A stretch of DNA of 62,946 bases, the filler included, from Craspedostauros australis (Eukaryota): assembly GCA_030167865.1 (NCBI GenBank). It is 13 parts of 13 records of this genome, joined end to end, with 100 filler letters (N's around TTAATTAATTAA, not from the genome) between each part and the next. Parts side by side here need not be neighbours in the genome. Positions count along the whole stretch, not along the records: positions 1 to 12,927 come from JALAGF010001571.1; 12 more parts are not named here. The stretch is one strand, 5' to 3'. Made by a program: the position numbers and the translations under genes. This document shows, in pieces, positions 1 to 57,010 of this stretch. Position 1 is the first letter of the stretch, and each line of letters starts with the position of its first letter. The notes under the pieces are model-generated. The model was not told where the DNA came from. It was given only the letters and a program-made list of their open reading frames with translations, and made no database searches.

Positions 1-1595
1 CCTTGGCAGGAGTCCTGGCCGATGTCGCCAGCGTTCTCGCGACAAGTGAAGTTGCCGAGGCAGGAGCTTGCAGCAATCGTGCCTGTGTTTCGGTTGCACG
101 CGCGTATACCTCCGCAGGACCCCGCGGCAATGCTACCAGCGTTTTGGGAGCACGCACTTCTATCGAAACAACTTCGGCTTGCGATATCTCCTTCGTTGTA
201 ACCACAAGCAAAATACCCCACGCACGCGTTCGTACTGACTGCGCCTTCGTTGGAGGTGCAGGCGCTTTCGCCGATACAGGATCCGGCATCGACGTTTCCT
301 TCATTGTAGTCGCAAGCTTCCTCTCCAATGCAGGATCCGGCGCTGATGTTTCCCTCATTGTAGTAGCAAGCTTTCTTCCCAACGCATGAAAATGCGGAGA
401 TATCGCCTGAGCTTTGATAGCAAGCATTGTCGCCGTTGCAAGAATACTCGCTGACTTTGACGGTGTTGTATCCGCAACTGAAGTAACCATTGCAAGAGTT
501 CTCCTGGACGTCGCCTTCGTTGTCTAAACATGCTCCGTCTGCGATGCAAGAAAATTCGCTAATGTCGCCCATATTCCCAAAACACGAACTCGCACCAAAG
601 CACGAGAATGCAGAGATATCGCCTGAGTTTTTGTAGCAAGCACTGTAGCCGTTGCAAGAATACTCACTGACTTTGCCGGCGCTGAATGTGCAACTGAAGT
701 TGCCATTGCAAGCGTAAGAAGGAATTGATATCTCGATGCCAGCGCAGGCGGACCCATCGTTGCAAGCATAGGGAGCAATCGTGATGGCCGTTGTCTCGTT
801 GAGACTGAATGCGCAAGAGGAATTGCCATTGCAGGAGTTGGGGCACACCGTCACGCGTCGGTCGCTGCCCCACGCACACGCTGTCTCATTGACTGGTGCT
901 TGACAGCAACTAGCCTCCTCGTCTGCGCACTTTGCGATGACATCTTCGGCCGTTCCAGTGAAGCACGACTTGAATGCCTTGTTGGACTTGGACGACTTCT
1001 CAGACTTGGCTCCCTTTGACGATTTCTCAGATTTGGGGGACTTGAGGTGGCGGTTGTGAGCATTGAGGGTTTCGGCCGTTCCCTCATGACGAAGTTCTGC
1101 GATGGACGCAAGCAACGCACCCTTCTCGGCATCATCTGTGGTGCCTTGAAGACGGCCAAGATCGGTGAACTTGTGCTCAAGCTTGCGCTCAAGCTTGTTG
1201 TTGTCGTTGCTCTTGGCGTTGGTGGAAGAGGTGGCATGTCGACGACGGAAGTTGCTTGTCTTGGCCTTGGTGTTGGCGTCCTTGAAGTTGGGAACAAGAT
1301 CATCAATGTTGGGCACGGAGGAGGTGTCAGAGAGGAGCATGTTCACCTTGTCCTCGGTGTCTTGTGCTGTGATCTTGGTGTTGTCGCCGTGTGCGGAGTT
1401 GAATTCCAAGATCTTGGCCTTGCGCTCAGCTGCCAGCTTGCCGAACTTCGCTTGAAGAGCGTTGATGTCGACATCAATGTTGAGATCTGGGGCGACCTGG
1501 TTGCGACCGCTCCTGTCGAGCACGGCATCGACGCCGTTGCAGATGATGCTCTGTGCGATGACGAGAGCGAGGATGTCTTTCTTCATGGGTGGCAT
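1..1595 (-). CDS. Secreted Cys-rich repeat protein (signal peptide, RxL site, KxxK cluster, ~15 x 18-aa repeats); 3' end lies outside the window
   Basis: Manual translation from ATG 1595 (or 1586) stays open to base 1 (>=531 codons); not in the ORF track because no stop is present. N-terminus MPPMKKDILALVIAQSIICNGVDA; RHL-KSPKSEKSSKGAKSEKSSKSNK at ~1052-969; repeats such as SCIGEEACDYNEGNVDAG from ~840 to 1. Confidence 0.88.
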   Translation of the reverse strand, partial: MPPMKKDILALVIAQSIICNGVDAVLDRSGRNQVAPDLNIDVDINALQAKFGKLAAERKAKILEFNSAHGDNTKITAQDTEDKVNMLLSDTSSVPNIDDLVPNFKDANTKAKTSNFRRRHATSSTNAKSNDNNKLERKLEHKFTDLGRLQGTTDDAEKGALLASIAELRHEGTAETLNAHNRHLKSPKSEKSSKGAKSEKSSKSNKAFKSCFTGTAEDVIAKCADEEASCCQAPVNETACAWGSDRRVTVCPNSCNGNSSCAFSLNETTAITIAPYACNDGSACAGIEISIPSYACNGNFSCTFSAGKVSEYSCNGYSACYKNSGDISAFSCFGASSCFGNMGDISEFSCIADGACLDNEGDVQENSCNGYFSCGYNTVKVSEYSCNGDNACYQSSGDISAFSCVGKKACYYNEGNISAGSCIGEEACDYNEGNVDAGSCIGESACTSNEGAVSTNACVGYFACGYNEGDIASRSCFDRSACSQNAGSIAAGSCGGIRACNRNTGTIAASSCLGNFTCRENAGDIGQDSCQ

Positions 1596-1757
1596 GGTTG
1601 CGTGTTGTTGTTGTCGGTGTTGTTGTTACTTGTTGTGTGTGCGCTTTGGCCTTGAGTCAAGTTGAGTTGAGCTGGTCTGTTCTCGATTTTGTGGGTGATG
1701 GCAAACAATCGCTTGAGGGGTGATACTCTTCTCATGCTATCTGTATCATGCTCTGGT

Positions 1758-1803
1758 GTTGTTTGCGTTGTTTGCGTTGTTTGCGTTGTTTGCGTTGTTT
1801 GCG
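1758..1803 (+). repeat. 9-bp tandem repeat (GTTGTTTGC)x5
   Basis: Directly visible, ~160 bp upstream of the Cys-repeat gene start. Confidence 0.9.
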
Positions 1804-3284
1804 TGCTCTTCCTCCTTGTGGATGTTGGGCATGAGTTTGGATCCAACAACTTCGGGAACTTTCAACTTCGTGGAGGTGGCAACAACGGCGAAGCCACAGT
1901 TGGGCGCCGGACATTGTGGCGCTAATTTGGTTTTGCCTCGCCATTTTTGCTCAGCGTTCCGTGGACAACGGGAGATTACTTCAGCCACCGCTGTCTCAGC
2001 AGACATGACAAGATCCTGCATAAACGTGCTCCAGTGACAACGGATGTTTGAGGTCGTGAAGTGTTTTTTGGTGATGTCTGTTGTGAGCGGGACTTGCTCT
2101 CTCTGTGCGCATCTTCGATTGATGATGCTCACTTGAGCTTCGTGGCGCGCCCTTCGCCTGTGGAGAAAGCCACGGCAGGCAGCCAAGGCAAGGATGAGCG
2201 CACACACTACCCAATGCACAACAAACAGTTGTAGCCAAACAATTCGGCGATTATTGGATATGTTCGGATCACAAGAACTGCTGTGTGGATCGTAGTACAT
2301 TTTCTACGTAAGTCCCGAACAAAAACAGGTCAATAACAGCATCAACCATAGTCAAACTTTTCGGACTTTGCTCGTGTGCGTGTTCCTGTACTCATCTTTC
2401 CATTGTAGCATCGCATGGCGTTTATATATACCATCCTGAAGTTTGGTGGCCATTGCTCTCTTGCTCGGTGAGCACTGATACGATCCGTCGGGCACCCCCA
2501 TCATTCACGGACGCTTTTTGCTTGTGTTTGGCATGTTTTCTTGTTCTGGTTGTTCCAAAGAAGTGTTCCAACTATAGCTGACGCCATGATGACGCAAGCA
2601 TTGGAACCAGAATTCTCCAAACTTGCGACCGAAATTAGGGATCCGAGTGGTCAAACATCGCTCCGCCTACCATGGGAGCACTAAACGCAAGCATACCACC
2701 ATACCATCGCATTCAAACATAATATAGACCACATGGTTGTGACCACCTCGGCGGGGGGATTCTGAAATTATATCTATTGTTCAGATTGAGCCAAAGGCCG
2801 CTCAGTCCGGAGACTACAAAGATGGAGAGCCGAATTCCTCAATAAACGAGGCAAGATCCTACAGGATCCCTGTAGAATCCTACATGTAGCCAACTGCACC
2901 CAACGAGATCCTACAAAAATCTGATCTGTCCGTCGTCCGAAGGCAAAACCACACCTAGGGGGTCAACAAACACAAATAGATCGACGAGATAGTAGTAGCA
3001 ACATGAAATGTCAATACTTTCCTGGATAGCCCTGGCTCTTAAGTTTACGTAGATGTAAAGAGATATTCGATTGAGTGCCTACAACATCAAGTCTGAGATC
3101 AGGAAAAATGGATCCAACATCTGTAACCAATTGCAACCAATTTTGGGGGTCTGTTTGTATGAGGCGCTCGAGTGTTGGTGGTGACGGTCATGGCGATGCC
3201 TATCCTCACAATTTGAATCTGTTTTGCTGCGGTCATGTCATGTGATACAACGGATCACACAGAGCGAATCTCACACATTCGACA

Positions 3285-4637: not shown

Positions 4638-5384
4638 TCATTGCTTGGCACCACCTCGTCGTTGACGCTGGAAAACTTTCTTGAGTCGGCTCTTCGCGCT
4701 CATCGTCGCCGTTGTTGCTGTTGCCTCTGCTGTATCAGATGACGATGCATGCTGCGATCGTCGAAGCGACTGGGATTGCCGCCGTTTCTGCTCTGCCCTC
4801 GCTTGCGCCATCACCCGGCCGACTTCGGATTCTGTTCGGTGGGCAGATCCGTGCAGCAAAATGTCAGCGTGATCCTGCGCTGGTCGGTGATCCTGCCTGA
4901 CCGCGGCGGTGGCCAATTCCGCGTGATCTTCCGTGTCTGTGCTGGCGTCGGAGGCGGGCAAGCAACCGACGATGAAGACCATCGCATCCGACAAGGAGTT
5001 GTCCTCATCGAAATCCTCGCAGTCGGTGCACGAAGTGGCATCGTCGCTGTCGGATGCCGATGAGTGCTTGTGCGCCTCCATGCTCTGGCCTGGCAGCTGG
5101 TTCTGCTTCTTCCACACCTCGATGTCGAGCTTCAACGGGATGTTGCGGATGTAGCTGGAGGGACCCATGGGCTGGCGGCTGAAGGGGCAGCTCCCATTCT
5201 CTCGGATCCAACGGAAGATGGCGGAGCATTCGTAGCTGCGTCCGAAGCGGTCGACGACCGGCTCGTTCATCAGCTGCATCGTGAGCGGGCAGAGGAATTT
5301 CTCAGGGATGTTACTGGGCATGCAGACGTCATTGCGCTGCGTTGTGTTGGTGGAATTCTCTTTCGGCGTGGTTGAAGGTGTCAT
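4638..5384 (-). CDS. U-box domain protein (putative E3 ubiquitin ligase)
   Basis: IPEKFLCPLTMQLMNEPVVDRFGRSYECSAIFRWIRENGSCPFSRQPM fits the U-box consensus; first ATG at 5384. Confidence 0.88.
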   Translation of the reverse strand: MTPSTTPKENSTNTTQRNDVCMPSNIPEKFLCPLTMQLMNEPVVDRFGRSYECSAIFRWIRENGSCPFSRQPMGPSSYIRNIPLKLDIEVWKKQNQLPGQSMEAHKHSSASDSDDATSCTDCEDFDEDNSLSDAMVFIVGCLPASDASTDTEDHAELATAAVRQDHRPAQDHADILLHGSAHRTESEVGRVMAQARAEQKRRQSQSLRRSQHASSSDTAEATATTATMSAKSRLKKVFQRQRRGGAKQ

Positions 5385-7009: not shown

Positions 7010-8269
7010 TTACGATTGAGGCGGTGCATACGAAAGCAACACCTTGTGGCGCAAGAAATAGTACAGCAGACTGGGATCGTCCCGGACCCTGCTCACGATG
7101 GTGCCCCACAGCGCGAGCGGAACCGAATGAACGTCATGCGTGCCACCATCATCACTCTGAAGCAGACGCCGCCCTGCACGGTTGGCTCTGACCCAAAAGT
7201 CAGCGACTCGAATCATGTCCGGCTTTGGTTTGCGCCCGCGATATTTGATGCTCTTGATCCAGAAATTGTGCATCTCCATCGTCCTTGCTATCGCCCTGGC
7301 TCCATTCCATGATGCCAGGTTGCTGCTGATGCTCAAAGACTCCAGATTGGGACCGGCATCCTGCAGAATGCGACAAACGCCGTCGCGGCCGATCGGGTTG
7401 CGATGCAGATCCAACCGCTCGATTGGACAGGCCCTGTCCGGCAACGTGGATGCAATCACTTGAGCGCCGGCATTGGATATCTCGTTCCTGCCCAACGACA
7501 AGATCCTCAGCGACTGGTTTCTCTGCATACCTCGCGATAAATTGATCACGTCCTCGTCATCGACACTGTTGCATGACAGATCCAGCGTTCTGAGACCGCA
7601 GCCCGGCAATGCGAGTGCTTGCGCAATGGCGTCGCTGTCGGCCGTCGACTCATGGCACGCGTGGCTCGAGCTCAGATCGATCTCCTCCAGCGATCCGAAT
7701 CCTGCGCCCGACAGCATGTCGGCAATACCGCGAGGCCCAAGCCGATTCCTTGCAACGTTGAGCCGCTTCAGTTGCGGGTTGTTCGCCAGGATCTTGCGCA
7801 GGGATCTTCCGCTGGACGCTGTCAAGAAGTTGAGGCGGACATTTAGGTGCTGCAGCTGACCCAGACGGTGCTGGCTCAGCAATTCGACGCCCGCATCCAA
7901 CAACCGGCAGCCTGTGAGATGCAGCGTCGCGATCGACGTATGGTCTTTGAGCGCACGCGCAATCAACCTCACCCCTTCCCTGCCCATGTCGTTGCGAACC
8001 AGCTCCACGACCTGCAGCGTGCCATTTACCAGAAGATGTTGGCCGAAACCGCGTTGGGAGGAGGGCAGCTCATCCCATTGAAGACCGCGAAGGATCAGCC
8101 GTGTCACGTTGGTGTTGCGCTCCAGCGCAATCGCAAGGGACAGCAAGTCCACTTGCTCGTCGATGAATTCCAAGAATGTGAATGCGGGATCATTGTTGTG
8201 CACCGCCACCAGGGTCTTGTGCACAACCTGATTCGGGTGCAGCGGTGCCGCATCCACGAGATGGTTCAT
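7010..8269 (-). CDS. Leucine-rich repeat protein, ribonuclease-inhibitor-like (NLRC3-type repeats)
   Basis: Repeated LxxLxLxxNxI/L units (LRTLDLSCNSV, LRILSLGRNEISNAGA, IERLDLHRNPIG); C-terminal NRAGRRLL...VPLALW...LLYYFLR tail of the kind common in diatom LRR families. Confidence 0.88.
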   Translation of the reverse strand: MNHLVDAAPLHPNQVVHKTLVAVHNNDPAFTFLEFIDEQVDLLSLAIALERNTNVTRLILRGLQWDELPSSQRGFGQHLLVNGTLQVVELVRNDMGREGVRLIARALKDHTSIATLHLTGCRLLDAGVELLSQHRLGQLQHLNVRLNFLTASSGRSLRKILANNPQLKRLNVARNRLGPRGIADMLSGAGFGSLEEIDLSSSHACHESTADSDAIAQALALPGCGLRTLDLSCNSVDDEDVINLSRGMQRNQSLRILSLGRNEISNAGAQVIASTLPDRACPIERLDLHRNPIGRDGVCRILQDAGPNLESLSISSNLASWNGARAIARTMEMHNFWIKSIKYRGRKPKPDMIRVADFWVRANRAGRRLLQSDDGGTHDVHSVPLALWGTIVSRVRDDPSLLYYFLRHKVLLSYAPPQS

Positions 8270-16515: not shown

Positions 16516-19500
16516 TCAAAGGAATGTTCTTCGCAAGCTGTCGTAATCATTGGAGAAGAGATCTGCGGCCCTTTCGGCCAAGGTCTCGCCTGCGTGGGCT
16601 GCCGCTGCAGCTGCTGCTGTGGCCGCGGCAATTGCATCGGCATTCGGTGGTTCCATGGCGTTCGACGCGGTGGGCAATCTGCGACGCATCAAATTCCTTG
16701 GCGCTTGGTGGTGGTGGTGTTGTTGATGGTGGTGCTGCGGCTGATGAAGGTGTTGCATGAAATCCCTGTGCTGGAACACCGTGTTGGCGATCTGCTGGGG
16801 GAATGCAGGGAGAGGTTCCGTCATTTCGACGGTCTGATCCACAGCGTTCGTGTTGGCGGGCGGAGGTGGCTTGGGTTGCTTCCTCAGCTTGTAACTCGCA
16901 TCCCACACGAAGCCGATCTGCTCAAGCTGCGCGACTCGGTCTGGGCTGAGGCTCGTCTTGTTGCCGGAACGGAGCTTCTTGTAGTTCTTGCGTTGCGCTT
17001 GCACCCACTTTCCAAGATTGTTGTAGCCGACGAAGTGCTGCGGAACGACGGTGTCTCCGTGTTCAGCCTTGTATCGCAGCAGCTGCTGGAACCGCTCGTC
17101 CCATGACTTGCGGCCGTTCTGCGGGCCGAGGCGCTTGCCCACGTTGAACTCAAACTCGATGGCCTCCAACGCGGCCAAGCGGTCATCCTTCATGGTGTTG
17201 GGTCGTCCCATCGTGCGCTTGCCGTACTCCGTTCGGCATGACGACACGAAGGCTCCCAGCGCACCCTCCATCACTGGAACTCGTGTGTGCCCATGCTTTG
17301 CCTTGTACTCCTTGAGCTGCTCCAGGCGGTCATTGAAGCTCCAGTAGTTGGGCTTTTGGCGGAACATGAAACCGACGTCGTACAGCTTCTGCAAACGGAG
17401 CGCGGTCAATCGTGTCGGCTTCCCAGCCTGCAGACGGCGGTACTGGACTCGCTGCAGACGTACCCACTTCTTGAAATCATCGAGCGGCGGGTTCGTGTTC
17501 ACGAGGCAGTCGCCATGCTCCTCGCTGTAGGCCTTGAGACGCGCAAACTGCTCATCCCAAGTATGCTCATCGACGAGGTCATCGACGGGATCGTACGACT
17601 TGCCCGCCTCGAATCCCAATGCCTTGAGCTGATCCACCTGATCCTTGGTGATGCGGCATCCCTTTCCGGCATCGAATCGTTGGATCTGTGTCTTGACCTT
17701 CTTGGCCCATTTGGACAGCTCGTGGCCCTTGTTGAAGACCTTGCCACCCGTTTTATCCATGTGCTCCTTGAGCTGCTTCACGCGATCCTCGAACGTGACG
17801 TGAACGAGCGGGAACCCGATGGCCAGCAGGCGCTGCCGCTTCTCCTCGGACATCGTCGATAGTTGCCCGTCTTTGAGGTACCTGAATTGGGCCCGCTGCT
17901 CGATGGAGAACCGTCGGATGTCTTGCAACGAAGGATCCTCGTCTGCCATGGCCTTCGTGATTTCGAAATCTCCATCGTTGGCCTCGCCGTACTCTTTCAG
18001 CTTCTTATACGATGCCTCCCAACGGGCTCCAGGCTTGCGGTACATGCGCTTGTCGACATTTAAGTCAAAGCCGATCTCCGTTAGCATGCGCTCCTTGTCC
18101 GCGCAGAAGGTGCCCTTGGAGTTGGTGTTGTTAATGCGCCCAGCCGCTTGCCATTCACGGTAGAACCTTCGTTGGTTGTCCGCCCATACCTTGAGCTGCT
18201 TGTACGACTCTATCGGGATGAACTCATCGTCATCGTCATCGTTGTCATCGTCCTTGTTCTTCTCCTTGTCATTGTCGGTTGGTTCCGTCTCCATGGCATC
18301 ATCGTTCTTTGCGTCACCACTGCCGCCAACGAGGCCGGTGCCAGTCTCACGAGGCTGGGTTTCCGGTTCTTCATCGGCACCATTGCCATTCGCTGCGGCA
18401 CCAGTTGCGGTCGGTGCTGGATTGCTTGCCTGGACGCGACGACGCTTAATGGGTTTGGTCAAGCCATTGATGGCGAGGTATACGTTGGTGTGACCATACT
18501 TTTCCTTGAAGTCTCTCATCTTGCCCATCATTTGCTGCCATCGGCTGTGGACCTTGCGTGAAGACTGAATGGAGTGCATGGCCCTCTTGAATTCTCGCTT
18601 GTGACGTTGGCGGTCTACGGCTGCTACGCTATTGGCGTTGATCGCATCCAAGAAAGACTGGCACTTGGCATACCTCTCGATAGCCTTGACTGTGGGATCG
18701 TCGTTGATATCACTTGGCCCGGTCTTCACGAGTTTGGCATCGAAGGTATCCTCGTCACTGTCCTCGTCGGAGCTGGAATCATTGTCGTTGCCGTCGTTTT
18801 TGCCACCGGCTGCGTTCTCCTTGGGTCTGGCAAGACCACGGCCCTCGCCAAAGATGTCCTTGGACAAGGAACCATCCTTGTCGATGGTCCTCACGGACGT
18901 CTCGGCCGTGCGCGCCACCACTCGCGCGACCTTGATTTCGCTTGGGGTGACCGTCCAGCTGAAGCCAAGCTGTTCCAAGCGCGTGACCTTCATGCTTGTC
19001 GGAAGGTCAGAGCCATTGTGGCTGGATGAACTGCTTCTGCGCCCTCTACGTTCCAGGTTGAAGCTGTCATCGCTGTACTCGCTTTCACACCCTGAAGAGG
19101 TTGAGTTATCATCTGATTCGATGTGCTTCTTTTCCTTGTAGTTCACCTTTTTTCGATTGCGCCTGCTCCTTCGAACAGCGTTGGGGTCATCAGAGTCGTC
19201 ATCTGCTGCTCGCTTCTTGGAACCGGCCTTTCCGCCTTTCTTTCCGGTGCTCTTTCGGTGTGCGGTAAGGTACTTTTCTCTTATTTTCCGGATCCGCTGC
19301 TCTTTTATACGTTCCTTCGATTCCTTGTACTGGACGCGCTGCTCCGCTATCCAAATAACGAGAGGGACGTAGCTTTCTCCGAGGATGCGATCCTGCGACA
19401 AGATGGACTTGTCTGGTCGGATGAGAAGGTTGCCATGGCGCTTGTGAAATGTGAGAAGATCCGTGTACATATCCCACCACAACTTTGTCGGTGTGTCCTC

Positions 19501-21792
19501 CAAGGTCTCCAGCTTGGCCACGGCCTTGAGCTGTTCCACGGTGTAGTTGAGCTTGAACTGCTTCTGTTTCAGCGGTGGAGGCGGAAGGTGATGAATTGAC
19601 AGAGGCGCTGTGGATGCACGCGGTTGTGGAGTGGTTGGGCCTGTACCGGACGCGTTCTGCATCGTCGTCAACGTTCCGGCAGCGTTGATGGTGGCTGTGG
19701 ATGCTGCGGGTGCCTGCGTGGTGAGAAGCTTCGTTATCGGCGTGTTCTTCACGAGGTATGAATCAGCTTCGTCCAAGTACTTGAACTCCTTGAAGACGGA
19801 GAACGAATTCAGGAACTGGCGTGCGTTCTCCATGGAGAGGAAGATGCAATTCTCCAGTCCATCCTTCCCCTTCATGATGGCCACATATCGTGGTGGAGCA
19901 GGAGCTGGTGGTGTTTCTGGCGATTCTGTTGTTTTTGTTGCTGTGGCTGGAACTGCTTCCGCAGGTGCTGCTGTCGCTGTCGCTGTCGGTGCTGCTGCTG
20001 CTGCTGCTGTGTCCGCTTCAGCTGATGCTTCTGCTTCTGCTGCTGCGGCTGGCTCCTTGTCAATGTTAATCACCTCCAGCTGTGCCGTCAGTTTCGCACC
20101 TCCAGTTACATCTTGCAATGCAAGTTCAAGTTCGTGAGTCATGGGAATGCGCTTGAGTGTCGGCTTCTCCTTTTGCTGGTGCGACTCCACGCTGTCGTCG
20201 TCGTCGTCGTCGTCGTCGTCGTTGTCTATCACCACCACTTCCGTCTCATCCTGTTTGCCGGTCTTTGCATTTGCCTTCGCCTTCCCTTTTGCTTTGGGCT
20301 TGCCTGCCGCAGCAGTCGTCGCAGTGGCAGCGCCATGTTTGCCGGCGTTGTTAGCAATGTAGCCGGCGACTGGGGTAGAGTTGTGAGGGGGCGGCATGTA
20401 GGCTGTGGTGTTGTAGGCTGTGGTGTAGCCAGTGCTGTTGTAAACAGTGCCAGGAGGCACGTAACCGGCGTATGGAGAATTGGCGGATGGAGGAGGCATG
20501 TAAGCAGTGTGGTTGTAGGCAGTGTTGGCGGCCACATAGCTAGCGTACGGTGTCGCAGTTCCCGGAGGAGGTACGTAGCCGGCGGTGTTGTAGGATGTGC
20601 CAGGGGGTAGGTAACTGGTGTATGGGTTGGCGGGGTGCTTGGCTGCGGTAGCCTGGCGTTTTGCTTCGGTGTTGTGCTTGTTGACTTTGCGCTGAGTCGA
20701 AAACTTGCCATTGAGTCTGACGATGTTGCTGGCTTGATTTCTTGCACGTATTGTGGCGGCGGACTCTTGCGTAGTAGTGGTTTGTGCCGCTGACGGTGGT
20801 GCGGGCTTTGGCTGCCCAGTATTCGTTGCAACTGGGCGATGCGCCGCAGTGGTCGTGGTTAAGAGAGCTCTCACGATCGGAGTGGGTTGGTTCGATGCAG
20901 CTGTCTTCGTTGCTGGCGGTGCTGCCCTTGACTTTGCTGCTGCGGTGGCGGCGGTCGTCGCAATAGCTTGCACAATGGGAAGAGATTGTTTGGGTACAGT
21001 TGCCCCCTTCGACTGTGCCGCAGTTGTTGTTGCTTTTGTTGCTGTGGCTGTTGTGGCCGTTGCGATGGCTCTCACAATCGGAAGAGTCTGCTTCGCAGCT
21101 GTCGGCCTGGCTCCAGTCGGAGCCACCCTTGGCTGTTTCGCAGTCGTCACAGCAGTTGTAGTTTTTGCAATCGTCGCAGTTGTTGCACCGGCTTTCACAG
21201 TGGGAGTGGCCTCCTTCGCAGGAGCCGCAGTCGCTTTCGTTGCAGATGGAGCCGTCTTTGCCGGTGCCGCAATGGCCTTTGCAGCAACTGTCACCATTGG
21301 AGCAGTTTTTGCTTGCGCTTGTGTTGGTGGTGTCCGTTTTGGAGGAACTGGGGTTACCTTCGGTTGACCAGTGGCCGTCGCAACGGCTTTTGATGGCGTG
21401 GTCATCGCATTCGGTTGAACCGTGCTGGTTGGAGTGGGAGGGGTCGTCGCAGTTGCCTTCTTCGCGCTTGCGCCTGGTGTGACGGTGGCCGCAGCGGTCG
21501 CTTTCTCTGGAGTTGCCTTGGGCTGCGTTGGAGTCGTCGCAGCTGCCTTCTTGGCTCCAGGCGTCACGGCGGGTGCGATTTTTGGCGTGGCCGTCACGAG
21601 GGTCTTCGGAGCTGCTGTCCCCACAGCTGGTGATCCCATGACGATAGTCGTTGGGACTGGCACGGCGACCGCGAGGGCAACCGGGCCATCCGCAATGGAG
21701 GAACGCTTGGGCGCTGTGGATGGCTGACTGTGGGCTTGAGTGCTGCCCGAGGCTGTCGCAGGAGCGTTGTTGTTGGTCTGTGCTGTCGTCAT
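16516..21792 (-). CDS. Large helicase-associated (HA) repeat protein, ~1760 aa, with a low-complexity N-terminus, an RNase H1-N-like segment and 7 HA domains; no helicase core
   Basis: HA consensus W/F..RxxxLxxYKxxHG...LGxWVxxQR...RxxxLxxIGF occurs 7 times (e.g. WDERFQQLLRYKAEHGDTVVPQHFVGYNNLGKWVQAQR); first ATG at 21792. Confidence 0.88.
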   Translation of the reverse strand: MTTAQTNNNAPATASGSTQAHSQPSTAPKRSSIADGPVALAVAVPVPTTIVMGSPAVGTAAPKTLVTATPKIAPAVTPGAKKAAATTPTQPKATPEKATAAATVTPGASAKKATATTPPTPTSTVQPNAMTTPSKAVATATGQPKVTPVPPKRTPPTQAQAKTAPMVTVAAKAIAAPAKTAPSATKATAAPAKEATPTVKAGATTATIAKTTTAVTTAKQPRVAPTGARPTAAKQTLPIVRAIATATTATATKATTTAAQSKGATVPKQSLPIVQAIATTAATAAAKSRAAPPATKTAASNQPTPIVRALLTTTTAAHRPVATNTGQPKPAPPSAAQTTTTQESAATIRARNQASNIVRLNGKFSTQRKVNKHNTEAKRQATAAKHPANPYTSYLPPGTSYNTAGYVPPPGTATPYASYVAANTAYNHTAYMPPPSANSPYAGYVPPGTVYNSTGYTTAYNTTAYMPPPHNSTPVAGYIANNAGKHGAATATTAAAGKPKAKGKAKANAKTGKQDETEVVVIDNDDDDDDDDDSVESHQQKEKPTLKRIPMTHELELALQDVTGGAKLTAQLEVINIDKEPAAAAEAEASAEADTAAAAAAPTATATAAPAEAVPATATKTTESPETPPAPAPPRYVAIMKGKDGLENCIFLSMENARQFLNSFSVFKEFKYLDEADSYLVKNTPITKLLTTQAPAASTATINAAGTLTTMQNASGTGPTTPQPRASTAPLSIHHLPPPPLKQKQFKLNYTVEQLKAVAKLETLEDTPTKLWWDMYTDLLTFHKRHGNLLIRPDKSILSQDRILGESYVPLVIWIAEQRVQYKESKERIKEQRIRKIREKYLTAHRKSTGKKGGKAGSKKRAADDDSDDPNAVRRSRRNRKKVNYKEKKHIESDDNSTSSGCESEYSDDSFNLERRGRRSSSSSHNGSDLPTSMKVTRLEQLGFSWTVTPSEIKVARVVARTAETSVRTIDKDGSLSKDIFGEGRGLARPKENAAGGKNDGNDNDSSSDEDSDEDTFDAKLVKTGPSDINDDPTVKAIERYAKCQSFLDAINANSVAAVDRQRHKREFKRAMHSIQSSRKVHSRWQQMMGKMRDFKEKYGHTNVYLAINGLTKPIKRRRVQASNPAPTATGAAANGNGADEEPETQPRETGTGLVGGSGDAKNDDAMETEPTDNDKEKNKDDDNDDDDDEFIPIESYKQLKVWADNQRRFYREWQAAGRINNTNSKGTFCADKERMLTEIGFDLNVDKRMYRKPGARWEASYKKLKEYGEANDGDFEITKAMADEDPSLQDIRRFSIEQRAQFRYLKDGQLSTMSEEKRQRLLAIGFPLVHVTFEDRVKQLKEHMDKTGGKVFNKGHELSKWAKKVKTQIQRFDAGKGCRITKDQVDQLKALGFEAGKSYDPVDDLVDEHTWDEQFARLKAYSEEHGDCLVNTNPPLDDFKKWVRLQRVQYRRLQAGKPTRLTALRLQKLYDVGFMFRQKPNYWSFNDRLEQLKEYKAKHGHTRVPVMEGALGAFVSSCRTEYGKRTMGRPNTMKDDRLAALEAIEFEFNVGKRLGPQNGRKSWDERFQQLLRYKAEHGDTVVPQHFVGYNNLGKWVQAQRKNYKKLRSGNKTSLSPDRVAQLEQIGFVWDASYKLRKQPKPPPPANTNAVDQTVEMTEPLPAFPQQIANTVFQHRDFMQHLHQPQHHHQQHHHHQAPRNLMRRRLPTASNAMEPPNADAIAAATAAAAAAAHAGETLAERAADLFSNDYDSLRRTFL

Positions 21793-22827: not shown

Positions 22828-24434
22828 TTAGCCGCAGACGAAACTAATATCCGGATTCCACGTCATGACTGGTTCATCCGCCCTGGCTGTCAGTATTTCG
22901 CATCCGGTATCCGTGACGAGGACCATGTGCTCGAATTGCGCGCTGCGCTTGCCGTCCGTGGTGACGGCCGTCCAGTTGTCGTACCACGTCGTGTCGGCGG
23001 GCGTTCCGAGGTTGACCATGGGTTCGACCGTAAAAACGTGGCCGGCCTTCATGGTGCCCTTGGCCTTGTTCTTGTGGTAGTGCGGGATGTTGGGGACCGT
23101 GTGGAAGAGGGTGCCGATGCCGTGACCGCAGTACGTGCGGTTGACGCTGCAGCCGTTGGACACGGCCTTTTTGTGGATCGCTGTGCCCAGATCGCGGTAC
23201 AACGTGCCGGGCTTGACGAGGGCCAGGGCGGCAGCCAGGCATTCGAATGACGTCTGGATGAGCTTCTTTCCGTCCGCGTCGACCTTGCCCACACCGAAGG
23301 TCTCATTGAGATCGGCGTGGTAGCCGCCCAGGTTGTACGTGGTGATGTCGATGTTGACGATGTCGCCGTCCTCGATTTCTCTGTAGTCTGGAATGCCGTG
23401 ACAGATGACTTCGTTGACGCTGGTGCAGACGGATTTGGGGAAATTGTAGTAGTTGAGCGGCGAGGGATAGCACATGCGCTCCATGCAGGCCTCGTGGACG
23501 ACGCGATCGATCTCGTCCGTCGTGACGCCAGGTCGCAGCGCCTTGCCGGCAATGTCCAGCACCTCACGCCCCATCTTGCAGGAGTGGCGCATTCCGAATT
23601 CGCCGTCGAGCTCCTTCGAGGTGTAGATGCGGATGTTGTTGTGATACGATTTGTCCTTCTGCTCGCTCTCCGAAATGCCGGCGATGTGATCGGCATAATC
23701 TGGCTTTCGAATGCCAGGTTTCACTGCGCGCCGGGGGCTGTACAATGCCGGTCGCAGTGCGCCGGTGAAGGAGTAGGCCTGCGCCCAGTCGGGCAGCGAG
23801 AGCTTTTGCTCCTTGGATGCATCAGCAGGGCACGAGACACCGTCGCTAGGTGGTGTCTTTCTGTGTTGCGCGCTGCTCGTTTCAAACACATGGGAATGAG
23901 TATAGCATGGTATGGTATGGTTGTTGGTGGTGTTAGCGTTGTTAATGTTGTTGTTGATGGGCGAAGAAGACGGAAATTTGAGTAAAGATCGCACAACACA
24001 CGAGAATACGGAATGGAATGGATGGATCAAGCGTACGAGTATGACGAGAGATCATCAACCAACGCATCGCCACCAAACACCATCATGTAGTCGTATGTAT
24101 GCATGCTCAAGAAATCGATGCAACCTTGCAATGAAAGCATGCGGATGGAGTACTATACTCTGACACTCCATTCTTATGAACATCAACATCATCAACATCA
24201 ACATCATCACAATCATCATAACACTTGAGAAAGACCCTCGCAGACTTACCTCTGCGCAGCAATGATCTGCTTGGCCAAGGAATGCACCTGCTTGTGGCTG
24301 CCGTAGTTCTTCTTGAAGCAGTCCTGGCTGCAAAAGTAGGTGGGCTTGAGACCGAGCTGGACGCACTTGGGACATGCGAGGTTGCCAGTCACTGTCTGAG
24401 TACATCCTGGTGAAGCACAGTTTGCTTTTGCCAT
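22828..24434 (-). CDS. MAP1: Methionine aminopeptidase 1 with N-terminal C6H2 zinc finger; exons 24434-24250 and ~23860-22828
   Basis: Exon 1 [28 protein letters not shown]; exon 2 [51 protein letters not shown] donor at 24249 and phase-compatible CAG acceptors at 23861 or 23873. Confidence 0.94.
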
Positions 24435-25191
24435 CTTGTCTCGATTACGAATCTTATATAAAATGTTATACAATATTATAGAATATGATGTAATGTATTG
24501 GCAGAGTATTTGAATGTGCTTCTGGTGTTGGTATTGCTGGTCCTATCGATGGCGGTGGATGTGGTTGTGTGTTGTGATTGTATTTGTCATTGTGATTGCG
24601 AAGCGAGCAACAGCACCGTTCGATCACCATCGCCTCCACGAACTCCATCGTTCTCGCTCTTGTTCATCACGTCCAGTTGAGAAACAACTGCCGTCACGAT
24701 TGGTTGGCGGCAGTTCCATTGCGGTAGTGGCGAATCGCACGTTGTTGTGTCCATGTTCGTGTTTCTGTCGCGATCATGTTCTGTTGTTGGTATCAACCTT
24801 GTTTCAATCGTATGGGTCAAGTGGTTGTTGGAATGGTCGAAGTGATCGTGTGTATCCTCGACTCCACCGACTTCAACAGTTTCGCCAGAAACAACAACTG
24901 AAGTTCAACTTTGCGCGTGTCATCTTTTTGGATCCGATCACCGATCATCTCGCACCACATGGATCCTGCGTGTGGCATGCTTTGCTCTCGTGAGCCGTCC
25001 ATGCTCATTGAAAGGCAACAGCCGAGGAAAGATCCATTGCGCCGTCACAGCGGATAAAGCAACACCTGCTTCGTCCCTTGCTTTTGCAACAGATTAGGCC
25101 CCTGGCGTTGCATTTGAGGCAAACTGTTCACTACACTCTCGAGGGTGCGATCATGAAATCCAGCAACTACATCTGCAGCCACAAGAACAGC

Positions 25192-26730
25192 ATGAAGCCG
25201 CTGATTTGCTGCACCTTCTCGCTGCTATTCTGCACGGGACGTTCCTTCTCGTTGCAGGCGTCTGCATCGGATGTATCCAATGCAATTCCTGGCAGAGCAG
25301 CAGACGGCGATGCCACCATCTACGAATCTCTGCAATCGCAACCTCGAGATCTGCGATCCACGTTGGATTGGGCACAGCAGCATGGCGTGGTGTTCCACGA
25401 GAATTGGATGCAATTGACGCCCGTTGGCCATGCAGCGGATGAAGCGGAGGCCGTTGGTTGGGGATACTTCGCCGTGCAGGACATTCCAGCAAGGACCAAG
25501 ATCATGACGGTTCCGACTCAAGTGCACTTTGCATCGAGCAAAATATATCACGCCAATCGGCAAGAACAATCGTCAACATCAGCTGCAACAGAAGCAGTAG
25601 CATTCCAAACCGCCTACAAACACATCGCCAAGCACAAACTGCAAGATCAGATCCCCCAATTCATCATCTTCGTCGAACTGCTGCGTCACTTCCTGCGGGA
25701 CGCATCGATGTGGTCGCCGTGGCTCCAATCGCTGCCAAAAACATTCGACACGGCAACGTGCATGACCGAGGACGAGTTGGAGTGTTTGCCACCGCGCGCA
25801 TGGGCGTTGGCGTCGATCGAGATTCAGCATCTCAAGGTGTTTCGGTCGGCGTTGCAGCTGTTGCCCGATGCGGTGGTGCCGCGTACCAATCTGGATGACG
25901 AATTGATTCGATATGCGTTCAACGTCGTCTTCACGAGGTGCTGGAGTTATCCCAAACAATCGCAGCTGCTGCAGAATGCCACATTGGCTCTGCCGCACGA
26001 TCCGCACTTCGAACTCGATGATCTCGATTTGGTGCCCATGGGAGACATCTTCAATCACAACGTGCGCAACAATGCCGTTGTCACATACGACAGCACCAAC
26101 GGCGACGCCGTCTTCGTCACGACGCAACCAGTTCCGAAAGGTGCCCAACTCACCTTGTCGTACGGCGTCGACACCATCCCGTATCGTTGGTTGATCGTCT
26201 TCGGGTTCGTCGACACGGAACAGCCAGAGATCTACTGCGACTGGCTGGCCACGAACCCCACGCAACGCCATGTCGATGTGGGATACGACACGGAACGCAT
26301 GGTCTTCCGCACGAGCGACGGCGCCATCTCGCAGCCGGTGTGGGACGTCGTGCTCTACAGCATCCTGGAACAGGTGCCGCAGATTCAGGATCAATTCTAC
26401 GACGCTCTCGTCGTGCGCAAGGACGTGGCGATGCAGCAATATCTGCACCAGCGGTACATTATGGAGACCAGCATAATCCTGCGCAAGCATGTGGTACGGA
26501 CCTTGCAGGAACTGCAGCAGCAGGCCGATCGTATCGCGGCGCTGTTGTTGGAGGAGAACGACACTGCAAGGCAATCGCGCTTGCCATTGATCCAGACACA
26601 CGTCCAGTTTCTGCAAGCGACATACCGCAAGGTGAAGCTGCAGATCGATTTTCGGATGCAGACGGAATTGCAACGAAGGAAAGAGTCCCAACAGGACAAC
26701 GATGGTGACGGCAATGGCGATGAGCTGTAG
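25192..26730 (+). CDS. SET-domain protein lysine methyltransferase, Rubisco-LSMT-like, with N-terminal signal peptide (possibly plastid-targeted)
   Basis: GWGYFAVQDI, WSPWLQSLP, YAFNVVFTRCW, LVPMGDIFNH, GAQLTLSYG, IVFGFV; N-terminus MKPLICCTFSLLFCTGRS-F. Confidence 0.85.
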   Translation: MKPLICCTFSLLFCTGRSFSLQASASDVSNAIPGRAADGDATIYESLQSQPRDLRSTLDWAQQHGVVFHENWMQLTPVGHAADEAEAVGWGYFAVQDIPARTKIMTVPTQVHFASSKIYHANRQEQSSTSAATEAVAFQTAYKHIAKHKLQDQIPQFIIFVELLRHFLRDASMWSPWLQSLPKTFDTATCMTEDELECLPPRAWALASIEIQHLKVFRSALQLLPDAVVPRTNLDDELIRYAFNVVFTRCWSYPKQSQLLQNATLALPHDPHFELDDLDLVPMGDIFNHNVRNNAVVTYDSTNGDAVFVTTQPVPKGAQLTLSYGVDTIPYRWLIVFGFVDTEQPEIYCDWLATNPTQRHVDVGYDTERMVFRTSDGAISQPVWDVVLYSILEQVPQIQDQFYDALVVRKDVAMQQYLHQRYIMETSIILRKHVVRTLQELQQQADRIAALLLEENDTARQSRLPLIQTHVQFLQATYRKVKLQIDFRMQTELQRRKESQQDNDGDGNGDEL

Positions 26731-26841: not shown

Positions 26842-28959
26842 TCATCGCGACAACCGCAGCATCCAATACGCCGACGTCAAGGTCGTGATCAAGATCACAG
26901 CGAGCACGCCGACGTTGAACCAGTAGTCCGTGAAGATGCCTTCGTATCCCAAACTCTCGTAGACCAACTCGCCGGGCAGCGGACACAGATCGCTACCACC
27001 GATGGAGATGACGACGTCGACGTCCGTGGCGCATTCGATCTCGCGATCGCCGAATTCGTTGATGAGCAGCGCCGAGTATCCGTAGCGCGCGAATGACAGA
27101 TAGCTGGCCCATTGGATGCCATCGTGCATGCTGTTGAGGGGGATGTAGAATCCGCCCAGAATGAACATGAACAGCGTGAGGGTGGGTGCGATGATCAAAG
27201 CGATGGCCATGTTGGGGATCAAAATACTGAGCAGGAATCCCATGCTCTGCGCCGCGCTGAGCGTGAGGTAGTAGGCCAGAACGAATTTGAAAAAGTGCGG
27301 CGCCGTCAAGCGCAGTCCTGCGGCGAAGTAGACGACGATGCCGTAGAAGACGGGCAGGATGATGTTGTTGGTGAGATCGGATGCGATCTTGGCCAAGAAG
27401 AACGGCAGGACGCCGTAGAGTTTTTTGGCACGTTCGCGGCGCAGCAGGGCACGCTCGCGTTGGAAGACCTGAAGGCTGCCGACGACGATGGCATTGCCTT
27501 GCGCGATGAGGACGAAGAAGAGCAGCGAATTGCGCTCGTAGGTTGCCGAAGTGTCATCGCGGATCTGCCACCAGAAGAGGCAGGTGAGGAAGATGAAAGT
27601 GAACGTAAGGATGAGGGACACCGCCGTGAGCTTCTCGCCACGACGTTGCTTCATGGTGCGGGTCATGAGCAGCTGCAGCTGCAGCCAGAAGGACGCCTCG
27701 TACTTGACGGTGCTTGTTTTCAATTCCTCAAGAGTCGACAGCCGAGTCTGCAGGGGCTTGCCGCACTGCCCCGCAGACGTGTGTGAGGACGTCGGTGTGT
27801 GTTCCATGGAAGCGGACTTGATCATACCATCATGCTCCGCCGCATGCTGCCTCCACCGTTGCGCCAAGGCACTCACGGGCGCGACTTCCAACGACGACGA
27901 GGATTGCGTTGCTGCCTCCTCCATCTGATGCTTTCGCGTTTGTTCGTCCATCATCACCGTATCCATCATCCAATCGGCAATGCCCGTTTCCTCCGGCAGG
28001 GAGTCGACGGTCGGACACGATTCGAGGTAGGCGCGCGCCTGCTGCGCTGGTCCATCGTACAGGACGTGCCCCTTGCTCAGCAACAGCAGATGATCGAGAA
28101 GCTTGAAGATATCCGTGCGCGGTTGATGGATGACGACGGCGATGGCATGCCCCATGGTACAGGCCAGCTCTTTCAACGTCTTCATGAGATCCCTGGCCGT
28201 CGTGGCATCCAACCCCGATGTGGGTTCATCGAGCAGAAGCAATGACGGACGCGCCACTAATTCCGCTGCCACGGCCGTGCGCTTGCGCTCGCCGCCGCTG
28301 ATGCCGGGCACGTTGGCCAAGGCGGAACCGATGAGGTTGTCGCGGATGTGCAGCAATCCCAGCTCCTTCATCGTCTCCTGGATGAGCGTCTGCGTGAAGT
28401 CCTTGTCCTCCTGCGATGATGATGGCGTCTTGAGTTTTGCGGCAAACGTGATGGTCTCTTCGACGGTGAGATGCGACAGGAGCAGATCGTCCTGCCACAC
28501 CACACCGACCAGGCGCTTGGGCAATCGACCGATCTCGCCGTTGATGGTGATGACGCTTTCTGGCGTGAGATCGTTGACGGGGTCCTTCATCAATCCGGCG
28601 ACAACCGAAGTAAGGGACGTCTTTCCGCTGCCGCTGGGTCCCATCCATGCCGTGAGTTGATACGGTGACACCTTCGTCGTGATGTTGTGCAGCACGGTGG
28701 TGCGAGGACGTCCGCCTTCTTGCGGTTGCTGTTGGGATGATGTGTTGGAAGCCGCTGTGGGAGGTGCCGCCTTGCCGATGGCAGACGTGACAGGGCGGTA
28801 CGTGACATTCCTGAGATTGAGTTCGACGATGGGAATCTTGCGTGAGTCCTGCAACGTCATTGCGAGGGATGATTTGCGATTGCCGAAGGTTGCCGACTTG
28901 ATGGGCCCATGCGCGTTGCTGTCGTCATGAGCGACGTCTTCGATATCGTGGGAAGACAT
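26842..28959 (-). CDS. ABCG (White-family) half transporter
   Basis: Walker A GPSGSGKT, signature ISGGERKR, Walker B LLLLDEPTSGLD, IHQPR, followed by an ABC2 membrane domain; first ATG at 28959. Confidence 0.95.
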   Translation of the reverse strand: MSSHDIEDVAHDDSNAHGPIKSATFGNRKSSLAMTLQDSRKIPIVELNLRNVTYRPVTSAIGKAAPPTAASNTSSQQQPQEGGRPRTTVLHNITTKVSPYQLTAWMGPSGSGKTSLTSVVAGLMKDPVNDLTPESVITINGEIGRLPKRLVGVVWQDDLLLSHLTVEETITFAAKLKTPSSSQEDKDFTQTLIQETMKELGLLHIRDNLIGSALANVPGISGGERKRTAVAAELVARPSLLLLDEPTSGLDATTARDLMKTLKELACTMGHAIAVVIHQPRTDIFKLLDHLLLLSKGHVLYDGPAQQARAYLESCPTVDSLPEETGIADWMMDTVMMDEQTRKHQMEEAATQSSSSLEVAPVSALAQRWRQHAAEHDGMIKSASMEHTPTSSHTSAGQCGKPLQTRLSTLEELKTSTVKYEASFWLQLQLLMTRTMKQRRGEKLTAVSLILTFTFIFLTCLFWWQIRDDTSATYERNSLLFFVLIAQGNAIVVGSLQVFQRERALLRRERAKKLYGVLPFFLAKIASDLTNNIILPVFYGIVVYFAAGLRLTAPHFFKFVLAYYLTLSAAQSMGFLLSILIPNMAIALIIAPTLTLFMFILGGFYIPLNSMHDGIQWASYLSFARYGYSALLINEFGDREIECATDVDVVISIGGSDLCPLPGELVYESLGYEGIFTDYWFNVGVLAVILITTLTSAYWMLRLSR

Positions 28960-36690: not shown

Positions 36691-36721
<31 letters not shown>

Positions 36722-36854
36722 TGGCGATCTGTCCCGAAAGAAGAAGCTGCTGCAGAAGCAGGCGAAGGGTAAGAAGCGAATGAAGGCCATTGGTAAGGTC
36801 AACGTCCCGCAGGAGGCCTTCATGGCCGTGCTGAAGTTGGATAACAGTGAGTAG
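34260..36854 (+). CDS. lepA: Translation factor GUF1/LepA (EF4), probably plastid-targeted; exons 34260-34458, 34835-35124 and 35364-36854
   Basis: [76 protein letters not shown]; both GT-AG introns join in frame; bipartite-like presequence ...LLASSSQA-W. Confidence 0.95.
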
Positions 36855-56431: not shown

Positions 56432-57010
56432 GGACATAGACGGCATGCTTGGATCGAAGTGGATGTGTTTGTCGATGTGATGCTGTTGGAGAGCATGGAC
56501 ATGAACGGCATGCTTCAATCGAAGTGGATGTGGCTGTCGATGCTGTTGGAGAGCATGGACATGGACGGCATGCTTCAATCGAAGTGGATGTGGCTGTCGA
56601 TGCGATGCTGTTGGAGAGCATGGACATGGACGGCATGATTGGATCGAAGTGGATGTGGCTGTCGATGTGATGCTGTTGGAGAGCATGGACATGGACGGCA
56701 TGCTTCAATCGAAGTGTTTGTCGATGTGATGCTGTTGGAGAGCATGGACACGGATGGCATGCTTCAATCGAAGTGTTTGTCGATGTGATGCTGTTGGAGA
56801 GCATGGACATGGACGGCATGATTGGATCGAAGTGGATGTGTTTGTCGATGTGATGCTGTTGGAGAGCATGGACATAGACGGCATGCTTCAATGGATGCGG
56901 CTGTGGCTGCCGATGTGATGCTGTTGGAGAGCATGAACATGGACGGCATGCTTCAATCGAAGTGGATTTGGCTGTCGATGCGATGCTGTTGGCAAGCATG
57001 GGCATCGATG
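56432..57010. repeat. Minisatellite, ~9 units of 58-66 bp (core GATGCTGTTGGAGAGCATGGACATGGACGGCATGCTTCAATCGAAGTG)
   Basis: Directly visible; unit lengths vary and break the frame. Confidence 0.9.

What the first reader, a model, noticed from the sequence alone, without database searches (positions are those of the whole stretch)
1..1595. Unannotated secreted protein combining a silaffin-like RxL/KxxK module with an 18-aa two-cysteine repeat array
Seen: an ORF of >=531 codons missing from the ORF track. It has a hydrophobic N-terminus, a ~160-aa pro-like region, RKL and RHL motifs, a Lys/Ser cluster and ~15 or more regular repeats of consensus SCxGxxACxxNxGx(I/V)xxx. Established: RxL processing sites and KxxK motifs occur in diatom silica/cell-wall precursors (silaffins, cingulins); short regular two-Cys repeats form disulfide-stapled beta-solenoids in e.g. 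beetle antifreeze proteins. Inference: a processed, frustule- or trail-associated rod-like protein, possibly an uncharacterised adhesin or surface-binding family.
Basis: partly seen in the sequence, partly recalled or inferred. Interest (0 to 1): 0.8.

Follow-up and report, generated by a model that had tools for sequence, protein, structure and literature searches.

The report
Silica-tagged variable cysteine rod proteins
This diatom gene is one of roughly two dozen or more related copies that join a known silica-wall address tag to a cysteine-rich repeat rod whose surface positions change unusually fast, which suggests a family of variable binding proteins on the glass cell wall.

Summary
The ORF (window 3-1595, minus strand, 531 aa) is real. 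It lacks a stop only because the contig ends. The repeat is not new: it is Pfam DUF7640 (108 bits, cut-off 28), found in diatoms and bacteria, function unknown. The genome is Craspedostauros australis or nearly so (a paralogue is 455/457 identical to its transcriptome protein). Architecture: probable signal peptide, 157-aa pro-region, conserved R-H-L, a Lys/Ser peptide matching the published silica-targeting pentalysine pattern, a Cys cap, then strictly 18-residue two-Cys units. AlphaFold predicts a beta-solenoid (pLDDT 88); handedness is unresolved, left favoured. It has no Thr ice-binding array. The genome holds 29 contig copies with this layout (about 26 genes; 11-37 units), 22 with the pentalysine pattern. 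New here: repeat core positions are purified (pN/pS 0.09), while positions 9-10 show dN/dS about 3. That held in two close hold-out pairs and exceeded 600 neutral simulations, but not in pooled distant pairs. Best reading: a processed, silica-anchored rod with a diversifying binding surface. Location, cleavage, ligand and this copy's expression are untested.

The parts
1596..2164 (-). Upstream region shared with the six closest paralogues and one further family member; it was duplicated with the gene and probably holds the promoter and 5' UTR
   Evidence: blastn 77-94% identity over 430-580 bp in 7 fetched loci; similarity stops by 2164, so these are paralogues, not alleles
1524..1595 (-). Probable ER signal peptide, residues 1-24 (MPPMKKDILALVIAQSIICNGVDA); the cleavage site is inferred
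   Evidence: hydropathy; conserved across the family; dN/dS 0.06 and 0.26 in two clades; SignalP not run
1053..1523 (-). Pro-region, residues 25-181, low model confidence, loosely constrained
   Evidence: pLDDT under 50 over residues 69-208; dN/dS 0.61 in both clades; no usable Atlas hit for residues 1-275
1149..1163 (-). Conserved DLGRL motif (residues 145-149) in the pro-region, role unexplained
   Evidence: D-[LQA]-G-R-L in 28 of 29 core copies; D145, G147, R148, L149 invariant in alignment A1
1044..1052 (-). RHL (residues 182-184), putative RxL processing site
   Evidence: strict RxL followed by K in 27 of 29 core copies; R182, L184, K185 invariant in A1
966..1043 (-). Lys/Ser peptide, residues 185-210 (9 K, 9 S, pI 10.3), with a pentalysine cluster at 185-197 (window 1005-1043); no further RxL separates it from the Cys domain
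   Evidence: matches K..K..K.{1,2}K..K; dN/dS 0.21 and 0.23; no second RxL in any of 29 core copies
768..965 (-). Cys-rich N-cap (CFTGT...CC...C.W...VCPNSC) plus the first, 23-residue unit; residues 211-276
   Evidence: invariant Cys, Trp and Gly in A1; also in Seminavis robusta and 'Stauroneis constricta' proteins; dN/dS 0.39 and 0.28
12..767 (-). 14 complete 18-residue two-Cys units (residues 277-528): DUF7640 beta-solenoid in an acidic Cys region (pI 4.05); fixed core at positions 1,2,4,7,8,11,13,15; positions 9-10 diversify fastest
1..11 (-). Start of the next unit and contig end; about 63 codons (rest of 4 units including the C-cap) are missing from the assembly
   Evidence: the last 84 nt are 100% identical to paralogue C4863, which continues for 63 more codons; no separate continuation contig found

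Best explanation
A secreted precursor of an expanded Craspedostauros family. It enters the ER and loses its pro-region at RHL (inferred). The mature protein is an N-terminal pentalysine peptide joined to a capped, disulfide-rich beta-solenoid of about 19 coils, roughly 9 nm at 4.8 A per coil (rise recalled). The lysine peptide, probably modified as in silaffins, addresses and anchors the protein to the silica wall (inferred from the motif). The rod presents a stripe of variable, often aromatic residues (repeat positions 9-10, and less so 5, 6, 12). These diversify by point change and unit shuffling, so the family works like a repertoire of wall-displayed binding scaffolds for variable partners such as microbes, viruses, other cells or glycans. 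Shown: architecture, family, motif match, predicted fold class and selection pattern. Inferred: cleavage, modification, disulfides, wall location, that variable positions face outward, and any ligand.
For: The pentalysine pattern is met. In the preprint that defines it, it occurs in 27 of 92 silica-associated proteins (29%) against 1.5% of background. It is kept in 22 of 29 core copies under purifying selection, directly after a conserved RxL. No transmembrane-like stretch at the C-terminus of 25 complete copies. Cys number is even in 23 of 25 complete mature regions. Fold: pLDDT 88.1, pTM 0.85, and the top VIA hits are beta-helices and beta-rolls. Selection: core pN/pS 0.09 (CI 0.04-0.17), positions 9 and 10 both 3.0, in 63 reciprocal unit pairs. 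The ratio is 2.3-2.5 in close pairs and falls to about 1 at saturation. Codon ML omega is 3.7 (p 0.013) and 10 (p 0.0015) in two clades. Close hold-out pairs gave 3.9 and 2.6, Fisher p 0.0012. No neutral simulation of 600 reached the observed 2.78 (maximum 2.41). Elsewhere DUF7640 sits beside extracellular modules (Ig-like, LamG, FG-GAP, PT repeats, VWFD).
Against: No localisation, proteomic or ligand data were seen. The 29% versus 1.5% figures come from three centric diatoms, and with a large background proteome most pentalysine proteins need not be silica proteins. Seven of 29 core copies, including the one with a known transcript (C6666), lack the strict pattern. Known silica proteins tend to be disordered and of low complexity, unlike this rod. 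Positions 9-10 were picked after seeing the data. Distant hold-out pairs gave 0.54, 1.86 and 1.36, and the pooled hold-out gave 1.19, not significant. In clade B, counting on collinear units gave only 1.26-1.44. Recombination can bias codon-model omega, and the simulation placed conversion tracts uniformly. The two AlphaFold models disagree on handedness. No coordinates were available to map positions 9-10 or the disulfides.
Confidence: 0.5

Rival explanations
1. Structural silica-wall protein: the lysine peptide drives silica deposition and the acidic rod is a spacer or ruler whose length (11-37 units, about 5-18 nm) helps pattern the wall. Surface variation is then incidental.
For: Pentalysine and KSSK motifs. 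Basic tag on an acidic rod, net charge -13 to -54. Whole-unit length variation with intact caps.
Against: A ruler predicts relaxed (ratio near 1), not accelerated, change at surface positions; observed about 3 at positions 9-10. The many recent copies with free length change fit a fixed measure poorly (inference).
Confidence: 0.15
2. Life-cycle recognition or envelope protein, expressed at mating or in auxospore and initial-cell walls; the variable stripe mediates cell-cell recognition.
For: In Seminavis robusta, genes with high piN/piS are enriched among sexually up-regulated genes (PMC7335047, passage). This family shows such a signal. The window stretch is poorly covered in the one run found.
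Against: One paralogue and two 'Stauroneis constricta' homologues come from MMETSP transcriptomes, which I recall being vegetative cultures. No expression data by stage were seen.
Confidence: 0.15
3. Component of the raphe-secreted adhesive trail or biofilm matrix, not attached to silica.
For: The same cap and solenoid end a giant mucin-like protein in this genome (C1450) and several Pro/Thr-rich proteins. Structural neighbours include adhesins BpaC, CbpF and UspA1.
Against: [quoted passage not shown] No CAA Pfam hit. PTS content is 19%. A silica-type tag would be unexplained.
Confidence: 0.12
4. Largely neutral expansion of a repeat-prone secreted gene; the apparent positive selection is an artefact of local gene conversion or assembly error.
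For: Broken copies exist (in-frame stop in C6707, interrupted C6483, fragments in C3855 and C5804). Units are mosaics of different paralogues. The assembly is fragmented.
Against: Signal peptide, lysine peptide, cap and repeat core are all purified. Synonymous change at codons 9-10 is not raised in close pairs, as local conversion would require. Simulations with conversion fall short.
Confidence: 0.08

Closest known systems
Pfam DUF7640 (PF24646)
   Same: The repeat array is this domain (E 4.5e-31). 88 of 92 scanned homologues carry it. UniRef names the C. australis paralogue a DUF7640 protein.
   Different: No function is assigned and no paper in the library names it. Outside this genome only 2 of 153 homologues examined match the pentalysine pattern. 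The signal/pro/RxL/Lys-peptide/cap layout was seen only here and in 'Stauroneis constricta'.
Silaffins, cingulins and silaffin-like KXXK proteins
   Same: Signal peptide, RxL site, repeated KxxK motifs and a pentalysine cluster (definitions from PMC4557024, PMC5501833 and bioRxiv 2021.09.18.460806).
   Different: The lysine part is only 26 residues and stays joined to a folded Cys-rich domain of 260-700 residues. Silaffins are mostly disordered and are cut into peptides.
Left-handed hexapeptide beta-helices (GlmU, LpxD) and YadA-type beta-roll adhesin heads (BpaC, CbpF)
   Same: 18 residues per repeat. Best low-rmsd matches of the better model: GlmU Z 15.1, rmsd 3.2, 192 aligned; BpaC Z 13.6, rmsd 3.2, 222 aligned.
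   Different: Identity 6-21%, no Foldseek hit at E<=0.001, no sequence hit in PDB or NCBIfam. Two invariant Cys per coil; secreted; no catalytic partner domain.
Tenebrio-type beetle antifreeze protein (features recalled)
   Same: C-x5-C pair in every repeat of a short regular solenoid.
   Different: 18- not 12-residue period; no TCT and only 2 TxT in the Cys region. C. australis is not found with ice.
C. australis trail proteins (Trailins, CaFAP1, Ca5609, Ca5255)
   Same: Same species, secreted, Cys-rich repeats; Trailin CAA domains are also predicted beta-helices.
   Different: No CAA, vWA or DUF4215 domain, no PTS-rich region, two-Cys rather than six-Cys repeats.
Variable LRR repertoires such as lamprey VLRs (analogy recalled, not tested)
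   Same: Capped solenoid, variable number of modules, fixed core with hypervariable positions.
   Different: Different fold; germline paralogues with no sign of somatic assembly; no ligand shown.

Membership tests
DUF7640 (PF24646) | Score above Pfam gathering cut-off | tested here: met
   108.1 bits versus 28.1, 3 stretches; Atlas top hit DUF7640 at 0.90
Silaffin-like KXXK proteins (Brembu 2017 screen) | N-terminal ER signal peptide | tested here: inconclusive
   Hydrophobic, conserved N-terminus; no signal-peptide predictor available
Silaffin-like KXXK proteins (Brembu 2017 screen) | Repeated KXXK (X = S or G) separated by 1-6 residues | tested here: met
   KSSK at 191 and 200, five residues apart (criterion)
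Silaffin-like KXXK proteins (Brembu 2017 screen) | RxL cleavage motif | tested here: met
   RHL 182-184; strict RxL-K in 27 of 29 core copies. Actual cleavage not tested
Silica-targeted proteins | Pentalysine cluster K..K..K.{1,2}K..K | tested here: met
   KSPKSEKSSKGAK, residues 185-197
Silaffins proper | A 100-residue stretch with at least 18% Ser and 10% Lys (threshold recalled) | tested here: not met
   Best window has 16 S and 9 K per 100; most of the mature chain is predicted folded
Silaffins proper | Polyamine-modified Lys, phospho-Ser, release only on silica dissolution, silica precipitation in vitro | not testable with these tools
   Needs biochemistry
Tenebrio-type antifreeze proteins | 12-residue TCT repeat with a flat Thr array (recalled) | tested here: not met
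   Period 18; 0 TCT; Thr at most 19% at any position
Tenebrio-type antifreeze proteins | Same solenoid fold with intra-coil disulfides | tested here: inconclusive
   Not listed among the top 50 VIA rows of either model; disulfide geometry could not be read
Trailins | CAA / pAdhesive_15 domain (PF20597) | tested here: not met
   No such hit at E<=10; the missing 3' end is inferred to be more repeats
Hexapeptide-repeat left-handed beta-helix proteins | Left-handed coil of three hexapeptides | tested here: inconclusive
   Model 2 fits left-handed helices at rmsd about 3 and right-handed at 11-12; model 1 the reverse. No hexapeptide Pfam hit
Frustulins and pleuralins | About 50-residue ACR or 90-residue PSCD repeats | tested here: not met
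   Period is 18; definitions

The most novel reading that the evidence does not exclude
Craspedostauros carries a diversifying repertoire of silica-anchored recognition proteins. A silaffin-type address peptide fixes each member in the glass wall, while a disulfide-stapled beta-solenoid of variable length presents a positively selected, aromatic-rich stripe. The stripe is reshuffled between paralogues in an arms race with viruses, bacteria, parasites or mating partners. This would be a wall-displayed, LRR-like receptor or decoy system built on a scaffold that diatoms share with bacteria.
Probability: 0.3. Interest if true: 0.85.

Novelty: new variant of a known kind. Interest (0 to 1): 0.6.

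Why it matters
Diatom silica-address peptides are known mainly from disordered, silica-forming proteins. Here one is fused to a folded repeat rod in about two dozen or more genes that show signs of diversifying selection, which would tie wall targeting to recognition or defence. It would give DUF7640 a first testable role. C. australis can be transformed, so GFP and lysine-mutant tests are direct. A small, stable, variable solenoid with a built-in silica tag would also be a natural scaffold for display on biosilica.

Tried and rejected
Extending the gene leftwards: contig C1570 is unrelated, the window joins are artificial linkers, and a search with the paralogue's 3' end found no separate continuation. 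Expression of this copy: no RNA holder listed; one run (X1, kind only guessed) has contigs identical to window 1-181 and 310-514 but covers little else, so it is not counted either way. PDB sequence search: 0 hits. Foldseek against PDB (both models) and BFVD (model 2): nothing at E<=0.001; weak viral rows were tail-fibre or YadA-like. NCBIfam: none. Atlas on residues 1-275: no usable hit. No bacterial gene contexts were obtained, because alignment A2 had no conserved stretch to search with; transfer between bacteria and diatoms was not tested. A genome pattern search for RxL-KS was over-constrained and found 0. No oligomer prediction was obtained, so trimer formation is open. Literature: 'DUF7640' 0 papers; two Seminavis gene ids and one MMETSP id 0 papers; topical searches listed no title or abstract describing this family; repeat motifs were absent from 5 supplement files of PMC9894196. 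The CaFAP1, final Trailin, final silica-proteome, Amphora trail and pentalysine papers were not held, and bioRxiv supplements are closed; they could list members of this family. Earlier findings of the scan: none in four look-ups. Rejected: RKL as a processing site, ice binding, Trailin membership, and allelism of C1571 with C4863.

Full report
Observation. The minus-strand ORF at 3-1595 encodes 531 residues with no stop. The window is a chain of contigs joined by identical artificial linkers (12 found), and contig C1571 starts at window base 1, so the gene is cut by an assembly break. Its last 84 nt are identical to paralogue C4863, which runs 63 codons further. The full protein is probably about 594 residues with 19 C-x5-C units (inference). 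From residue 278 the cysteines alternate 6 and 12 apart without exception: one 23-residue unit, 14 units of 18 residues, and the start of another.

Known part. The array is Pfam DUF7640 (E 4.5e-31). A profile search found 791 clusters at E<=0.001 among 1.84 billion representatives. Of 92 top homologues scanned, 88 carry DUF7640, often beside extracellular modules: Ig-like, LamG, FG-GAP, PT repeats, TSP3, P-domain. Named members come from Seminavis robusta, Thalassiosira pseudonana, 'Stauroneis constricta' and C. australis, and from Dehalococcoidia, Anaerolineae, Thermoflexales and Myxococcota (30 proteins looked up, most unnamed). No paper in the library contains the term.

Organism and family. 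Contig C6666 encodes a protein identical at 455 of 457 residues to a C. australis transcriptome protein. The genome is therefore that species or nearly so, and at least that paralogue is transcribed. DUF7640 matches lie on 50 contigs among the 150 rows listed (173 matches, 150 of 369 candidates scored: a lower bound that includes duplicate contigs). In the loci I fetched, 40 open frames carry the Cys cap. Of these, 29 have the core layout of the window gene; removing apparent duplicates (C4019/C4020; C4146/C2029/C4765) leaves about 26 genes. The 25 complete copies have 11-37 units, and 23 have an even Cys count in the mature region. All are single open frames. A tree of the cap region (49 rows) places 29 rows of this genome in one clade (97/92) with no outside sequence among the 9 included. 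That clade holds broken C6707 and lacks C6666, so it is not the same set of 29. The same overall layout appears in two 'Stauroneis constricta' transcriptome proteins.

N-terminal half. Residues 1-24 look like a signal peptide (hydropathy; dN/dS 0.06 and 0.26; no predictor run). The pro-region is low-confidence in the model and loosely constrained (0.61), apart from D-x-G-R-L (28 of 29). RKL is not conserved. R-x-L followed by K is present in 27 of 29 copies, with no later RxL before the cap, so a cut there would leave the lysine peptide on the rod. Residues 185-197 match K..K..K.{1,2}K..K. In bioRxiv 2021.09.18.460806 (sections 12 and 14 read, plus passages) this pattern was reported in 27 of 92 silica-associated proteins and 1.5% of background, citing work in which a 13-residue five-lysine peptide plus a signal peptide targeted GFP to silica. 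It is present in 22 of 29 core copies, 3 of the other 11 frames, and 2 of 153 proteins from the homologue searches; dN/dS is 0.21-0.23. RxL and KXXK background comes from passages of PMC4557024 and PMC5501833.

Fold. Model 1 (whole protein, 11 sequences) had pLDDT 82-90 on most repeats and matched right-handed beta-helices (Vag8 Z 17.4, rmsd 4.0). Model 2 (Cys region, 52 sequences) had mean pLDDT 88.1 and pTM 0.85. It matched left-handed helices at rmsd about 3 (GlmU Z 15.1, LpxD 14.8, BpaC 13.6) and right-handed ones only at 11-12. A beta-solenoid is well supported; left-handed is favoured but not settled. Foldseek found nothing significant. Disulfides could not be inspected. There is no Thr array.

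Evolution of the repeat. Over 396 distinct units from 26 genes, positions 1, 2, 4, 7, 8, 11, 13 and 15 are nearly fixed. Positions 5, 6, 9, 10, 12 and 14 have 3.4-3.8 bits of entropy, with aromatics at 33% (position 9) and 21% (position 10). In 63 reciprocal closest unit pairs from 14 genes, pN/pS was 0.09 for core positions, 1.54 (1.2-2.07) for the rest, and 3.0 at each of 9 and 10. The 9-10 ratio is 2.3-2.5 in close pairs and about 1 at saturation, where pS reaches 0.73; synonymous change at those codons is not raised. Codon models on six collinear units gave omega 3.7 (p 0.013, 6 genes) and 10 (p 0.0015, 8 genes), against 0.25 and 0.18 for core. These positions were chosen after inspection, so I ran two controls. 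In genes not used before, two close pairs gave 3.9 and 2.6 (17 unit pairs, Fisher p 0.0012); three distant pairs gave 0.54, 1.86 and 1.36; the pool of four independent pairs gave 1.19, not significant. In 600 neutral simulations, with and without uniform gene conversion, the best two positions never exceeded 2.41, against 2.78 observed. Counting on collinear clade B units gave only 1.26-1.44. The window's own units are a mosaic: units 1-9 are mostly closest to C4863, units 10-11 to C4961. I read this as probable, not proven, diversifying selection.

Mechanism. Most likely (0.5): ER import, removal of the pro-region at RHL, silica addressing by the lysine peptide, and display of an acidic disulfide-rich rod whose variable stripe binds changing partners. 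Rivals: structural spacer in silica (0.15), sexual-stage protein (0.15; PMC7335047 passages), trail or matrix protein (0.12), neutral expansion (0.08). For the trail reading I read the methods, part 1 of 3 of the results, and passages of bioRxiv 2023.03.06.531300: none of the eight proteins as described has this layout; its sequence tables were closed. Passages of bioRxiv 2026.03.25.714157 had nothing on this family.

Verdict. The domain and the motifs are each known. Their fusion, the lineage expansion and the position-specific diversification were not found in the searches listed under Tried and rejected. New variant of a known kind; interest 0.6.

Noticed in passing
window 50740-53041 (-) and L078/L092 (G000:C1450): The window holds a contig made almost wholly of a 14-residue mucin-like repeat (PSDLPSQAPTESVA type). 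The same unit fills a protein of about 2,260 residues on C1450 that starts with a hydrophobic N-terminus and ends in the same Cys cap plus a longer-coiled DUF7640 array: a giant stalked version of the rod.
   Followed up: partly
L064, L067, L080-L082 (C6005, C1749, C3862, C4130, C1425): Further DUF7640 proteins with Pro/Thr-rich stalks and short arrays; several have Lys/Ser-rich stretches near the N-terminus.
   Followed up: partly
window 1149-1163 (-) and homologues: D-L-G-R-L in the pro-region is as conserved as the RxL site; similar D-x-G-[RIV]-L words occur by eye in pro-regions of other diatom homologues (P0010, P0026, P0056, P0102). Possibly a second processing or sorting signal.
   Followed up: partly
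L026 (C6707), L018 (C6483), L063 (C3855), L068 (C5804): Broken family members: an in-frame stop in the pro-region, an interrupted pro-region, and fragments. This fits birth-and-death evolution.
   Followed up: partly
L060 (C6666), L066 (C2610), L067 (C1749): Tandem pairs of family members on one contig.
   Followed up: no
window 12928-60253: Twelve identical N-TTAATTAATTAA-N linkers: the window is an artificial chain of contigs, so gene neighbourhood across linkers means nothing.
   Followed up: yes
window 4638-5384 (-): U-box domain protein (Pfam PF04564, E 3e-14), the nearest sizeable gene upstream.
   Followed up: partly
window 2230-2375: Short segment matched at high depth by several divergent contigs of run X1; probably a dispersed repeat.
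   Followed up: no
window 7010-8269 (-), 16516-21792 (-), 22828-23592 (-), 25153-26730 (+), 26842-28959 (-), 34894-36854 (+), 37390-40674 (-): By eye only (labels recalled, not searched): an LRR protein, a helicase-associated-repeat protein, methionine aminopeptidase, a SET-domain protein, an ABCG transporter, LepA and a SEL1-repeat protein.
   Followed up: no
window 44942-46708, 47352-48422, 55272-56291, 60890-62020; 56432-57005: By eye: fragments resembling copia-type retroelements and a piggyBac-like transposase; also a 65-bp tandem array.
   Followed up: no
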